A stretch of 64,000 nucleotides of DNA from positions 21,072 to 85,071 of IMG/VR virus record IMGVR_UViG_3300036785_000488, one strand, 5' to 3'. This DNA is from a virus. The notes under the pieces were generated by a model. The model saw nothing but the letters and a program-made list of their open reading frames with translations. It had not been told where the DNA came from and did no database searches. Every line of letters begins with the position of its first letter. Within the stretch, counting starts at the first letter, position 1. Below are positions 31,905 to 61,099 of the stretch, in pieces. The position numbers and the translations under genes were made by a program.

Positions 31905-32180
31905 CTACTGAGCCTTCTCAGGCTCCCCTTGATGCTGGAGCTGATGGGCGATCTGGGCCTGGAAGCTCAAGATGGCCTCGGCTGTCTTGATCGCCTGGTA
32001 GTCGGCCAGGGCATTCGCCAGGGCGGGGTACACGTCCGCTGAAGTGGCGAGCCGCTGGGCCGTGAAGCGGGCCTCAGGATCGAGCACGACCCGACTCTGG
32101 CCGTTCTGGTCGAGCACCACGATGAAGAGGCACTGGACCTCGTGGCCCTGCTGTGCTTCGTTGCCGTTCGTCTCGGTCAA
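31905..32180 (-). CDS. hypothetical protein
   Basis: GGAGG before TTG. Confidence 0.6.
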   Translation of the reverse strand: MTETNGNEAQQGHEVQCLFIVVLDQNGQSRVVLDPEARFTAQRLATSADVYPALANALADYQAIKTAEAILSFQAQIAHQLQHQGEPEKAQ

Positions 32181-32572
32181 TCTGTCCTCCTACGACACCT
32201 CAGACGGTTGCACTCCCGGCACTCCCGGCGTCCGTGGTGGATGAGCGCGTCTTCCAGGCTGTGACCGTGCTTGCAGTGAGTCTTCGACCCCAGCGCCCCT
32301 CTCCGAACGTTCTCACGGCGGGTGACCGGCTCCAGGTGATCAGGACGGCAACAAGCCCTGTTCCGGCACAGGTGATCCAGCTCCAGGCCATCCGGCACCG
32401 GCTGTACTAGCAGCTCGTAGAGAACCACATGAGCAAGGAGATCCTTCCCAAGGTGATTGAGGTGACCATAACCATTGGGGTACCTAGCGGCAGTCCAGGG
32501 CCAGCAGTCGTCAGCGACGAGGAACTTGTCCTCCAGTCGCTCAAGAAGTGATTTGGCATCACTCCTAGTCAA
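32177..32572 (-). CDS. free-standing HNH endonuclease
   Basis: CWPW...NGYG...AH...Y...ELDHLCRNRACCRPDHLEPVT..EN; THCKHGH...CREC. Confidence 0.88.
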   Translation of the reverse strand: MTRSDAKSLLERLEDKFLVADDCWPWTAARYPNGYGHLNHLGKDLLAHVVLYELLVQPVPDGLELDHLCRNRACCRPDHLEPVTRRENVRRGALGSKTHCKHGHSLEDALIHHGRRECRECNRLRCRRRTD

Positions 32573-59319: not shown

Positions 59320-59858
59320 CAGTGGTACACCAGCTCTCTGCTCTCCAGCCACTCGTAGAGACCCTTGGGGACACGGTACTTACGTCCACGCAGGAACGTG
59401 TAGTTCGTACCGGCCCCGTAGGTCATGTCCTCGACATCGGTGTTGACCCGGATGACCCGCCATTCGTCTTCGACGGTGATCGGTTCCATCCCGAGGTCCA
59501 CCACCTCCAGAGGATTCGGAGCTGGCTCCTGAGCCTGTTGCTGGGTCTGCACCTCGCGGAAGTCCTTCATGGGGTTAGCAGCGACCTGAGGCTGTGACGG
59601 GTCAAGGATCTCATCGTCATCCACCGTGATCGGCGCGTCCTTGATCTGGTCGACCTTTTCCTGGGCGCTCTCGGGCAACTCCTCAAGCTCCCCAGTGATG
59701 GGGTCGAAGATCCCCTCCTGCTCGACCACGATGTCGACCTGGTTGACGAGACCAATCTCTTTCTGACGATCAGCCAATTCCTTGGCCTTTTCGTTGGTCA
59801 GACGCTGACGTTCTCGACCGGTGTGGTCGCCGCGTTGTGGTCCTCCGCGTGCTGGCAT
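59319..59858 (-). CDS. post-capsid (head-associated) protein
   Basis: TGATG-coupled to the capsid gene; IRVN.D.EDMTYG.G..Y.F..G.KY.VP. Confidence 0.65.
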   Translation of the reverse strand: MPARGGPQRGDHTGRERQRLTNEKAKELADRQKEIGLVNQVDIVVEQEGIFDPITGELEELPESAQEKVDQIKDAPITVDDDEILDPSQPQVAANPMKDFREVQTQQQAQEPAPNPLEVVDLGMEPITVEDEWRVIRVNTDVEDMTYGAGTNYTFLRGRKYRVPKGLYEWLESRELVYH

Positions 59859-61099
59859 CAGTTCGTCTGGGCGATGCAAACAGCCTGGTCAGTCACCAAG
59901 CCGAACCCCCATATCGCATACCAGCAGAGGGCGTGCTCACGTCCGAAGTCGAGGACGCCACCGTCACGCAGCTCGACCGGCAACGCGATGGCGTGACCGA
60001 AAGCGTTGTCACCGAGGTACATGGCCCAGTGCACAACCGGCGTACCGGCACCCGCAGGTTGGGTCTGCCGAATCTGCGTGGTCTCGATGTAGACCGTGTC
60101 GTTCAGGCGACCGATCTCTCCGAGCATGAAGTTCCCCGGTGCCGAGTACTTCGTGATTTCAATAAATTCTGGATTATCGCGAAGACGCCGGGACTGGTGC
60201 GGGTCGATGAAGCAGACGTACGTCTCACCGATGCGCGGCACGTTCTTCGTCGCCAACGTCTCGACCGCGTCCTTGGTCACCGACACGCTCATGTAGTACG
60301 TGCCCTTGTTGGTGCCCGTGGTCAGGTCGGTCTGCTGGGTGCCGACGGTACCGGCGTCGTAAGGCGACAGCGGAGTACGTGTCGCAGCCGGAGCCGGGAG
60401 GGCGTAGCCCCACAGCACCGACGAAGCGTTGTAGAGCGTGTCCCGCGCGGAGCCGTCAAGGTACTTCGCCATGTTGCGGCCCAGGAGCCGTGAGGACGAA
60501 GCCATGACGTCGTCAAAGGACGCGTTCAGAAGCAGCTCTGAGACTGCGACTGCGTAGCCCTGCTCTGCCACCGTGATGGCGTACTGGCTGGCGGTGAGCG
60601 CAGCGGTCTGCATACGCACACCTTCGACCAACTGTGTTGCGTCTCCGAGGTTGTTGTCATTCTGTTACCCCACCGGTTTCCCGGTGTGGGGCGGTCATTT
60701 CTGCCGCCCTCTGCATCTTTACCATCGATGCAGATCGGACTGTATCTTCACCTCCCGAGGGAGGGCTTCGCGTGCAGTCTCTACGGACTCGCCGGTTTCC
60801 CGGATTGCCTCGGTATTCCCCTGGTTTTGGGGGGGTTCACCGATACAGCGAAGTGGTGATCCTGCCAGTCACCCGACAGGACGGCCCATCGACCTCATGA
60901 AGTTGATCTGGAGACCTGGCTGGATGCCAAGCTCAGTCTTCTTCACGGCGAACTGCTCGAAACGCAACACCGGCATGCTCTGGAAGAGGATCTCCTTCGA
61001 CCAGATCACCTGGATAGCCGGGGACAACTGGGAGTTGGTCCCTGGATATCCGGTAGGTGAAGCACTCAGAAGGGGAGTGCCGGTGATGCTGGAAGGCAT
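59858..61099 (-). CDS. major capsid protein (N4-gp56 type), spliced: exon 1 61099-60892, exon 2 60657-59858 (335 aa)
   Basis: IWSKEILFQSMP.LRFEQFAVKKTEL...PG..INFMR|YNNLG...L.EG; EQGYAV.VSELL, GEIGRL....IET, DFGR....WY..WG; 208+800 nt = 336 codons. Confidence 0.92.
60658..60891 (-). ncRNA. group I self-splicing intron without ORF (234 nt)
   Basis: Exon ends in U, intron ends in G; P3 CUUCGC/GCGAAG, P4 UCGGU/ACCGA, P7 GACUG/CAGUC; R-like GUAGAGACUG and S-like AAGAUACAGUCC; P2, P8 and P9 hairpins; removal restores the frame. Confidence 0.92.

What the first reader, a model, noticed from the sequence alone, without database searches (positions are those of the whole stretch)
60658..60891. Minimal ORF-less group I intron interrupting the major capsid gene
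Seen: the capsid gene is split into two ORFs by 234 nt that fold as a group I ribozyme. P1 has exon GGU pairing with GCC (U.G at the splice site); P2 GUCCUGUCGG-GUGA-CUGGCAGGAU; P3 CUUCGC/GCGAAG; P7 GACUG/CAGUC; three P9 hairpins; terminal G. Splicing gives AGG-U|AC-AAC-AAC = ...INFMRYNNLGDATQLVEG, a 335-aa protein. Knowledge: phage group I introns are best known in nucleotide-metabolism and replication genes. Inference: the most abundant virion protein depends on efficient splicing, which could act as a late-expression checkpoint.
Basis: partly seen in the sequence, partly recalled or inferred. Interest (0 to 1): 0.8.

Follow-up and report, generated by a model that had tools for sequence, protein, structure and literature searches.

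The report
Small self-splicing intron in capsid gene
The major capsid gene of this soil phage is split by a real 234-base ORF-less group I self-splicing intron, a relative of introns proven to splice in Cluster J mycobacteriophages, and its intron family turns out to sit mostly in phage capsid genes, up to five per gene.

Summary
Window 60658-60891 (minus strand) is an exact 234-nt insertion in an HK97-type major capsid gene. Removing it gives a 335-aa protein colinear across FMR|YNNL with intron-less capsids of Streptomyces phages GiJojo and BRock, and with 45 of 45 metagenomic relatives. A soil DNA contig skips exactly these 234 bases. The insert is a group I ribozyme. Its Rfam RF00028 score is weak (26.4 bits, below the cut-off of 50). 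However, it aligns at 78% identity with the ORF-less BAKA tail-gene intron and matches the LittleE capsid intron, both shown by RT-PCR to splice (Pope 2013). On 66 distinct family members, P2-P9.2 and the P7 pseudoknot show strong covariation. It has no ORF, and no RNA data were available. So it is a new member of a known kind; the proposed "late checkpoint" role has no support. The more interesting result is about the family. It occupies at least 11 sites in this same capsid family, with up to five introns in one gene that still splices in silico to an open frame. About half of 102 viral loci carrying the intron core lie in major capsid genes of four PHROG families. I found no paper or cultured-phage record describing this.

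The parts
60892..61099 (-). Exon 1 of the major capsid gene (69 codons plus the first base, U, of the Tyr70 codon). It ends ...UUC AUG AGG U.
   Evidence: It matches phrog_1357 major head protein, profile positions 24-72. It is 85-100% identical to exon-1-equivalent parts of 45 intron-less relatives.
60658..60891 (-). The 234-nt ORF-less group I intron (intron position p = 60892 minus the window coordinate).
   Evidence: RF00028 26.4 bits, E = 1e-4. It aligns at 78% identity with the BAKA intron. Blastn matches Cluster J introns at E = 9e-13. A DNA contig skips exactly this stretch. Its antisense ORFs have no Pfam hit.
59858..60657 (-). Exon 2 of the major capsid gene (AC of Tyr70, 265 further codons, and the stop).
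   Evidence: Pfam PF25209 Phage_capsid_4 (29.2 bits, cut-off 27). phrog_1357 at E = 6e-45.
60883..60894 (-). P1: exon GGU (60894-60892) plus intron C1, pairing with intron G6-G7-C8-C9. U(-1).G7 is the wobble pair at the 5' splice site.
   Evidence: MFE fold. In the family the IGS covaries with the exon: CGGU/GCCG, UCCU/GGGG, GCCU/GGGC. The exon part of this copy's P1 is the shortest of those tabulated.
60859..60882 (-). P2 hairpin (10 bp, GUGA tetraloop). The UGA in the loop (60871-60869) is the first in-frame stop for ribosomes reading in from exon 1.
   Evidence: All 10 pairs show compensatory changes in the family (helix 1). Early in-frame stops are enriched in the family.
60848..60853 (-). 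P3 5' strand, CUUCGC (partner 60766-60771).
   Evidence: All 6 pairs are compensatory and 92% of cells are paired (helix 2).
60785..60844 (-). P4-P5-P6-P6a domain (P4 UCGGU/ACCGA, P5 CCCC/GGGG, P6 GG/CC, P6a CCGG-GAAA-CCGG).
   Evidence: In one search, helices 3-5 are 98-100% paired; helix 6 (P6a) only 67%.
60775..60779 (-). P7 5' strand, GACUG (within GUAGAGACUG, i.e. J6/7 plus P7).
   Evidence: It aligns to the RF00028 consensus AGACU. P7 was not in my model, yet it is 98.4% paired, with G-C/A-U exchange at the last pair (helix 7).
60766..60771 (-). P3 3' strand, GCGAAG.
60751..60764 (-). P8, a short 5-bp hairpin with a CUCG loop. It is much longer in relatives, which is why this copy is the shortest found.
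60738..60750 (-). J8/7 plus the P7 3' strand: UGAAGAUA-CAGUC.
   Evidence: It matches the RF00028 consensus GAAGAUAUAGUC.
60670..60734 (-). P9 (8 bp, loop GAUGGUAAA), P9.1 (6 bp) and P9.2 (GAAA loop). P9.2 is where LittleE and L012 carry their homing-endonuclease ORF.
   Evidence: In one search, helices 10-12 are 88-100% paired, with compensatory changes at 17 of 20 pairs.
60658..60669 (-). Conserved 3' tail GGUAACAGAAUG, ending in the terminal G (omega-G) at 60658.
   Evidence: The tail GGUAACA(R)AnnG is conserved to its last G across distant members.

Best explanation
This is a compact ORF-less group I intron. The capsid pre-mRNA folds into the P1-P9.2 ribozyme. An external guanosine, bound at P7, attacks after the U of the U.G pair in P1 (between 60892 and 60891). 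The freed exon 1 then attacks after the terminal G (60658). This joins AGG-U to AC-AAC and produces mRNA for the 335-aa capsid protein. Unspliced mRNA would give only a 76-residue peptide, because an in-frame UGA lies in the P2 loop.

The intron belongs to the actinophage intron family that includes the BAKA tail intron and the LittleE capsid intron. Because it has no endonuclease gene, it most likely persists as a selfish passenger. Spread would be by recombination between co-infecting relatives, perhaps helped by free-standing endonucleases, or by IGS-guided integration at sites ending in GGU.

Shown here: the exact insertion, the family membership and the conserved structure. Inferred: the splicing chemistry, that splicing happens in vivo, and how the intron moves.
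For: - Exact colinearity of the spliced product with intron-less capsids, and with 45 of 45 IMG/VR relatives, where the gap equals the Tyr codon alone.
- An intron-less DNA allele in soil run X3 skips exactly the 234 nt. The intron-bearing 5' junction occurs with 0 differences in a second sample from another study, X2.
- RF00028 alignment covers all 253 model positions, including J6/7-P7 AGACU and J8/7-P7 GAAGAUA.AGUC.
- Homology to the BAKA and LittleE introns, whose splicing was shown by RT-PCR; LittleE's also by N-terminal protein sequencing (PMC3706429).
- Covariation on 66 distinct family members: 91.5% of cells paired against 36-42% when partners are slid. 50 of 61 pairs have compensatory changes. 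The covariation score is 0.489 against about 0.06, and 0 of 500 shuffles reach it. P7, which was not modelled, is 98% paired.
- Family members in the same capsid family score 31-86 bits on RF00028, and 7 of 15 pass the cut-off.
- Genes with 2-5 such introns splice in silico to open 328-334-aa frames.
- The P1 guide sequence covaries with the exon across sites.
- The upstream reading frame stops early inside the intron: median 12 nt against 42 and 32.5 in the other frames.
- No ORF with a Pfam match lies in the intron.
Against: - There is no RNA evidence, because no RNA run holds this sequence.
- The Rfam score is below the curated cut-off.
- The exon part of P1 is only 3 bp. The window has AGG where the 14 relatives printed at the site have CGN, so A(-4) faces G10 where C would pair.
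- No convincing P10 pairing with the 3' exon was found by eye.
- The covariation alignment was fitted to a model built from this intron and three relatives, which inflates pairing for every helix except P7.
Confidence: 0.9

Rival explanations
1. The intron is a decayed, splicing-dead copy, so the capsid gene is broken and the contig represents a defective phage or remnant.
For: This copy has the lowest RF00028 score seen in the family (26.4 bits). It has the shortest exon part of P1 and a unique A at -4 that removes a possible C-G pair. Its P8 is truncated compared with relatives.
Against: All core helices are intact with no mismatches. Both exons are open and 90-100% identical to intact relatives. 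Portal, scaffold and capsid genes are in order. Stretches with no differences, one of them spanning the 5' junction (60850-61099), occur in soil run X2, from a different study than the likely source run, which fits a propagating phage. Site-33 introns L135 and L096 carry the same guide sequence (GGGCCGUC) and have only UGGU/GCCG in P1.
Confidence: 0.06
2. Beyond being selfish, the intron is used by the phage as a timing or dosage control on capsid synthesis.
For: Only indirect evidence. The family is strikingly concentrated in major capsid genes and other virion genes, which could reflect a benefit tied to these genes.
Against: There are no regulatory data. All 45 of the closest capsid relatives lack any intron, so the intron is dispensable. 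Sporadic distribution is the usual signature of a mobile selfish element. Cluster J introns were reported simply as efficiently spliced.
Confidence: 0.1
3. The insert is not an intron. Either the capsid is made as two polypeptides from a split gene, or the insert is another kind of repeat or insertion element, or it is an assembly artefact.
For: Two separate ORFs can be called, of 76 aa and 257 aa. There is no Rfam hit at the gathering threshold.
Against: Every homologue is one continuous protein across the site. The insert has U/G boundaries, a conserved ribozyme core, and homology to experimentally spliced introns. Logan's separate assembly of the likely source run reproduces the whole junction region, and a contig of run X2 from another study reproduces its 5' part. 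The downstream ORF would need a TTG start inside a conserved helix region.
Confidence: 0.02

Closest known systems
Mycobacteriophage BAKA/Optimus gp34 minor-tail-gene intron (Cluster J; Pope et al. 2013, PMC3706429)
   Same: It is also ORF-less and small (265 nt), with U at the end of exon 1 and G at the end of the intron. It aligns at 78% identity with the same P2-P9.2 layout, an identical P9 hairpin and the same GUAACA tail. Its splicing was shown by RT-PCR.
   Different: It sits in a tail gene of a Mycobacterium phage. Its P1 is 6 bp (GGCGGU/GCCGCC) with a longer P1 loop, and its P8 is long and two-part. Many helices differ from the window's by compensatory changes.
Mycobacteriophage LittleE gp13 major capsid intron (Cluster J)
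   Same: It belongs to the same intron family and also sits in a major capsid gene. Its splicing was verified by RT-PCR and by N-terminal sequencing across the junction. Its ribozyme part aligns with the window's intron.
   Different: It is 820 nt and carries an antisense homing-endonuclease ORF in P9.2. The capsid family is different (with an N-terminal processed domain) and the insertion site is unrelated (GTGG|YAVP).
Rfam RF00028 group I catalytic intron; compact bacterial introns
   Same: The P3-P9 core, the J6/7 and J8/7 consensus, the U.G splice-site pair and the terminal G. The size is near the lower end for the class. The same core motif occurs in a CPR 23S rRNA intron (69.9 bits on RF00028, L189), and beside tRNA genes in Arenicellales, where no intron was confirmed.
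   Different: This copy scores below the curated threshold. The subgroup was not determined with the tools. It lacks P7.1/P7.2 and P5abc, so by architecture it looks unlike the IA2 introns of T4. That comparison rests on my own knowledge and was not tested here.
Multi-intron phage genes (Staphylococcus phage Twort orf142 with three group I introns) and classic T4 td/nrdB/nrdD introns
   Same: Self-splicing group I introns in protein-coding phage genes, with sporadic distribution among relatives.
   Different: This comparison is from my own knowledge. The relatives found here carry up to five introns of one family in a roughly 1-kb capsid gene, and all of those are ORF-less.

Membership tests
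Group I intron (Rfam RF00028) | Covariance-model score at or above the curated gathering threshold (50 bits) | tested here: not met
   26.4 bits, E = 1e-4 on 551 nt and 3.7e-6 on the 85-kb record, with full-length alignment 1-253. Family members in the same capsid family reach 31-86 bits, and 7 of 15 are over the threshold.
Group I intron (Rfam RF00028) | Conserved core helices P3-P8, with the P3/P7 pseudoknot, supported by covariation | tested here: met
   91.5% of cells paired against 36-42% in slid controls. 50 of 61 pairs are compensatory. P7, which was not in the model, is 98.4% paired. The window copy has no mismatch in any helix.
Group I intron (Rfam RF00028) | 5' splice site after a U that forms a U.G wobble with the internal guide sequence; intron ends in G | tested here: met
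   The boundaries are fixed independently by protein colinearity and by an intron-less DNA allele. They fall after U (60892) and after G (60658). U.G7 within P1 appears in the MFE fold. The guide sequence covaries with the exon across sites.
Group I intron (Rfam RF00028) | Guanosine-initiated self-splicing and a ligated-exon product | not testable with these tools
   No RNA run holds the sequence. Splicing is shown experimentally only for the relatives BAKA and LittleE.
Cluster J-type actinophage intron family (BAKA / LittleE) | Sequence homology over the ribozyme and a shared peripheral layout (P2, P6a, P9, P9.1, P9.2, GUAACA tail) | tested here: met
   Blastn E = 9e-13 over two pieces. 78% column identity. 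Shared helices with compensatory changes.
Mobile group I intron with its own homing endonuclease | An endonuclease ORF (LAGLIDADG, GIY-YIG, HNH and similar) inside the intron | tested here: not met
   The intron is only 234 nt. The two antisense ORFs (57 and 88 aa) have no Pfam hit. The only endonuclease found in the 85-kb record is a free-standing HNH_3 28 kb away.
HK97-fold major capsid protein (host gene) | Both exons match one capsid family in colinear order, in a portal-scaffold-capsid gene context | tested here: met
   phrog_1357 matches exon 1 at profile 24-72 and exon 2 at profile 85-344. Pfam Phage_capsid_4. An SPP1-type portal lies upstream. The homologues are annotated as MCPs in GiJojo and BRock.

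The most novel reading that the evidence does not exclude
The window's intron is one copy of a so far undescribed radiation of small ORF-less group I introns that target the most highly expressed virion genes of actinobacterial phages.

What was seen:
- At least 11 insertion sites in this one capsid family, with up to five introns per gene.
- About half of 102 intron-bearing viral loci lie in major capsid genes of four different PHROG families. Most of the other annotated matches are tape-measure, major-tail or HNH-endonuclease families.
- Every site ends in GGU or CCU, matched by a 3-5-nt guide sequence.

This pattern would fit movement between sites by guide-sequence-directed (reverse-splicing-like) integration rather than by endonuclease homing. 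It could also reflect a benefit tied to capsid expression.
Probability: 0.3. Interest if true: 0.75.

Novelty: new member of a known kind. Interest (0 to 1): 0.5.

Why it matters
Taken alone, this is a clean extra example. It shows that annotation pipelines will miscall such capsid genes as two ORFs, and that Rfam's group I model misses this actinophage subfamily at its threshold.

The family context is worth more. One capsid gene lineage carries one to five ORF-less introns at a dozen sites, and the intron-less and intron-bearing alleles occur in the same soils. That is a natural system for asking how endonuclease-free group I introns move, and why they gather in capsid genes.

It also gives a practical covariance model for finding split structural genes in actinophage genomes and soil viromes.

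Tried and rejected
- Rfam at the gathering threshold found nothing in the window. Only the permissive search found the intron.
- No RNA holder was listed for the capsid gene, so expression and splicing could not be examined. Only DNA contigs could be laid.
- I tried to show that the window's intron arose by a jump from site 33 rather than sharing origin with the other site-69 intron (L126). Identity favours the site-33 copies (82% and 78% against 75%) and the guide sequence is identical. However, no branch holding the window's row is supported, and the AU test does not reject a clade of the two site-69 introns (p = 0.39). I do not make the claim.
- Subgroup assignment (IA, IC3 and so on) could not be tested. 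The shared core motif occurs in a CPR 23S rRNA intron and beside tRNA genes in Arenicellales, which does not settle it.
- The free-standing HNH_3 (window 32177-32572) has only a weak C-terminal similarity to the LittleE and L012 intron endonucleases (E about 0.003). That is no basis for calling it the mobilising enzyme.
- My first junction finder and the naive P1 finder gave some spurious calls where exons are short. L068's 5' boundary and one L097 intron remain unresolved. The refined chaining was used for the multi-intron genes.
- No P10 pairing was found by eye.
- Searches of the paper library found capsid-intron reports in actinophages only for Cluster J. Absence from that library does not prove novelty.

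Full report
**What is there**

The capsid gene lies on the minus strand. Exon 1 (60892-61099) ends ...UUC AUG AGG U. It is followed by 234 nt (60891 down to 60658) that begin CGAUGGGCC and end GGGUAACAGAAUG. Exon 2 begins AC AAC AAC CUC at 60657 and runs to the stop at 59858.

Reading through from exon 1 meets UGA after eight codons, at 60871-60869. Joining the exons in a script gives a 335-aa protein reading ...INFMRYNNLGDATQLVEG.

Exon 1 matches profile positions 24-72 of phrog_1357 (major head protein) and exon 2 matches positions 85-344. Exon 2 also passes Pfam Phage_capsid_4. An SPP1-type portal gene and a probable scaffold gene lie just upstream.

The window is part of an 85-kb IMG/VR viral contig estimated at 72% complete. 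It holds only this one copy of the intron.

**The boundaries are exact**

- The spliced protein aligns without a gap across the junction to the uninterrupted, annotated major capsid proteins of Streptomyces phages GiJojo and BRock. INFMRYNNLG is identical in all three.
- A capsid-based scan of IMG/VR gave 47 loci. In all 45 that contain both parts, the two exon equivalents are separated by exactly the three bases of the Tyr codon.
- Laying public soil-metagenome contigs on the gene gave one contig (run X3) of a related phage that skips exactly 60658-60891.
- Contigs in X1 and X2 skip the same stretch but have CGC or CGT in place of the AGG Arg codon.
- A contig of X1 (the likely source sample) covers the whole intron with no differences. 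A contig of X2, from a different study, covers 60850-61099, including the 5' junction, with no differences.
- No other choice of splice sites keeps the conserved R-Y-N-N. The chosen sites follow the group I rule: U before the 5' site and G as the last intron base.

**It is a group I ribozyme**

Rfam gives no hit at the gathering threshold. The permissive search aligns the insert to all 253 positions of RF00028 at 26.4 bits, with E = 1e-4 locally and 3.7e-6 over the whole record. This includes the J6/7-P7 motif AGACU and the J8/7-P7 motif GAAGAUA.AGUC.

An unconstrained fold recovers P1 (GGUC-GAUG-GGCC, with U.G at the splice site), P2, P3, P4, P5, P6a, P8, P9, P9.1 and P9.2. The z-score is -4.3. 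P7 (GACUG/CAGUC) is the expected pseudoknot with P3.

**Relatives with proven splicing**

Blastn against 50,697 phage records finds the intron only in Cluster J mycobacteriophages (apart from one weak match to Microcystis phage MaeS): the BAKA-type minor-tail gene and the LittleE capsid gene.

Pope et al. 2013 (PMC3706429) showed by RT-PCR that both of those introns are spliced. For LittleE they also used N-terminal sequencing across the junction. They noted the U/G boundaries and that the 265-nt BAKA intron lacks an endonuclease gene.

The window's intron aligns with BAKA's at 78% identity. Compensatory differences occur in P2, P3, P6a, P7 and P9.1. In LittleE and in a metagenomic relative (L012), the antisense endonuclease ORF sits in P9.2. 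In the window P9.2 is a short GAAA-capped hairpin.

**Family-wide structure test**

I built a covariance model (R1) from the window, BAKA, LittleE and L012 copies, leaving P7 out. A scan for the conserved P4'-P6-J6/7-P7 core found more than 117 viral contigs and more than 120 genome contigs. R1 found 69 copies in 44 of these sources.

On the 66 distinct sequences:
- 91.5% of cells form standard pairs, against 36-42% when partners are slid by 1-3 columns.
- 50 of 61 pairs show changes on both sides.
- The covariation score is 0.489 against about 0.06.
- No shuffle of 500 reaches the observed values.

The alignment is fitted to the model, which favours the modelled helices. P7, however, was not modelled, and it is 98.4% paired with G-C/A-U exchange at its last pair.

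Members of the family scored in six capsid-family loci reach 31-86 bits on RF00028, and 7 of the 15 hits exceed the threshold. The window's copy is therefore a low-scoring member of a securely group I family. Its short P8 makes it the shortest copy seen, at 234 nt against 238-340.

**ORF-less**

The intron is too short for an endonuclease. Its two antisense ORFs have no Pfam match. The 85-kb record has no HNH (PF01844), GIY-YIG or LAGLIDADG_3 match. Its one hit is a free-standing HNH_3 endonuclease at window 32177-32572, 28 kb away. That enzyme is only marginally similar to the LittleE-type intron endonucleases.

**Oddities of this copy**

The exon part of P1 is only GGU/GCC. The Arg codon before the splice site is AGG in the window but CGN in the 14 relatives printed at the site, and CGG in the other intron-bearing allele at this site, L126. 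A C at -4 would pair with G10, and G(-5) with U11, giving 5 bp.

Site-33 introns L135 and L096 carry the same guide sequence (GGGCCGUC) and have only UGGU/GCCG. A short P1 is therefore typical of this sub-lineage. The A at -4 is present in both soil samples. I could not find a P10 pairing.

**How it most likely works**

It most likely works by standard group I self-splicing. The in-frame UGA in the P2 loop would release ribosomes before they reach the P3-P9 core.

Across 30 distinct introns of this family in capsid genes, the first stop in the upstream exon's frame begins a median of 12 nt into the intron, with a maximum of 36. The other two frames give medians of 42 and 32.5. From my own knowledge, this fits the translation-splicing interplay described for the T4 td intron.

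That splicing occurs is inferred from four things: the intact core, the intact exons, homology to spliced relatives, and stretches identical to the window, including the 5' junction, in a second soil sample. No RNA data exist.

**The wider pattern (beyond the finding)**

Thirty-three of the pattern-derived loci matched the window's capsid protein by tblastn; 31 are 58-86% identical relatives and two are distant (24-27%). Four are Streptomyces genome contigs, presumably prophages. Thirty of the 31 carry family introns at places where the capsid match is interrupted.

Refined splice mapping places the introns at about 11 or more sites. In window-protein coordinates these are roughly 33/34, 38/39, 46/47, 52/53, 69/70, 99, about 130, 138/139, 244/245, 308/309 and about 315.
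- L135 has five introns of 266-300 nt. Removing them gives an open 332-aa frame, 68% identical to the window's protein.
- L089 has three introns (328 aa).
- L120 has two introns (334 aa).
- L126 has at least four, one of them at the same R|Y site as the window.

Every 5' exon ends in GGU or CCU, and the guide sequence covaries with it (CGGU/GCCG, UCCU/GGGG, GCCU/GGGC).

I took one flanking ORF from each of 102 viral loci that carry the intron core. At least 54 match major head protein families: phrog_1357 (26), phrog_10 (18), phrog_2263 (8) and phrog_752 (2). Most of the other annotated family matches are to tape-measure and major-tail proteins or to HNH endonucleases.

There are caveats.

Among cultured phage records, only Cluster J carries relatives of these introns. 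The six Streptomyces phages with this capsid family match only in the exons.

**Origin of this copy**

By identity, the window's intron is nearest to copies at site 33: 82% to L135's first intron, which my refined mapping places at site 33, and 78% to L068, against 75% for L126's site-69 intron. The tree is unresolved, and an AU test does not reject a common origin of the two site-69 introns (p = 0.39). The 45 closest capsid relatives lack any intron, so acquisition looks recent. The donor and the mechanism remain open.

**Comparison and novelty**

The feature is a new member of a known kind. Group I introns in actinophage capsid and tail genes have been known since 2013, and this copy belongs to the same intron family. 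The 'checkpoint' idea is unsupported, and the statement that phage introns are mainly in nucleotide-metabolism genes understates what is known for phages of Gram-positive hosts.

In the library I could search, I found no description of the following:
- the density of these ORF-less introns in one capsid lineage;
- up to five introns in one capsid gene;
- the strong bias of the family towards major capsid genes.

That pattern carries most of the interest score.

Noticed in passing
L135:5600-8020 (IMG/VR contig); also L097, L126, L089/L101/L149, L120: Homologues of the window's capsid gene carry two to five ORF-less introns of the same family. L135 has five (266-300 nt), and removing them gives an open 332-aa frame 68% identical to the window's protein. 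In all, at least 11 different insertion sites are used in this capsid family.
   Followed up: partly
102 viral loci, L063-L177 (alignment A6): ORFs flanking introns with this core motif are mostly virion genes. At least 54 of 102 match major head protein PHROGs of four families (1357, 10, 2263, 752). Most of the other annotated matches are tape-measure, major-tail or HNH-endonuclease families. This is a strong bias and was not corrected for relatedness.
   Followed up: partly
window 60893-60895 (Arg69 codon): The window uses AGG, whereas the 14 capsid relatives printed at the site and the other allele with an intron at this site use CGN. The A at -4 removes a possible C-G pair with intron G10 in P1. 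The same base is present in contigs of two soil samples.
   Followed up: partly
window 32177-32572 (-): A free-standing HNH_3 (I-HmuI-like) endonuclease gene of 131 aa, the only homing-type endonuclease found in the 85-kb record. It lies 28 kb from the capsid gene and has only a marginal similarity to the LittleE-type intron endonucleases.
   Followed up: partly
L190, L227, L268, L291 (Streptomyces genome contigs): Streptomyces genomes hold this capsid family with a family intron at site 46/47 or 38/39, presumably in prophages. This points to Streptomyces-like actinobacteria as hosts of the wider phage group. The window's own host is not established.
   Followed up: no
L010:4900-6750; L013:7940-9430; L219:150-2540: Other metagenomic contigs carry three to six group I introns packed within 2-3 kb. 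They share the P9 hairpin CUGCAUCGAUGGUAAAGAUGCAG and the GGGUAACA tail. Their host genes were not identified.
   Followed up: no
L189:6133-6331; L181:4263-4310 and similar Arenicellales loci: The same P4'-P6-J6/7-P7 core motif occurs in a 23S rRNA intron of a candidate-phyla-radiation bacterium, and between tRNA genes in many Arenicellales genomes. The core is therefore shared well beyond phages.
   Followed up: no
L005:1501-1564 (Microcystis phage MaeS): A 64-nt match (78% identity) to the intron core lies next to hypothetical genes of a cyanophage. It may be an unannotated group I intron.
   Followed up: no
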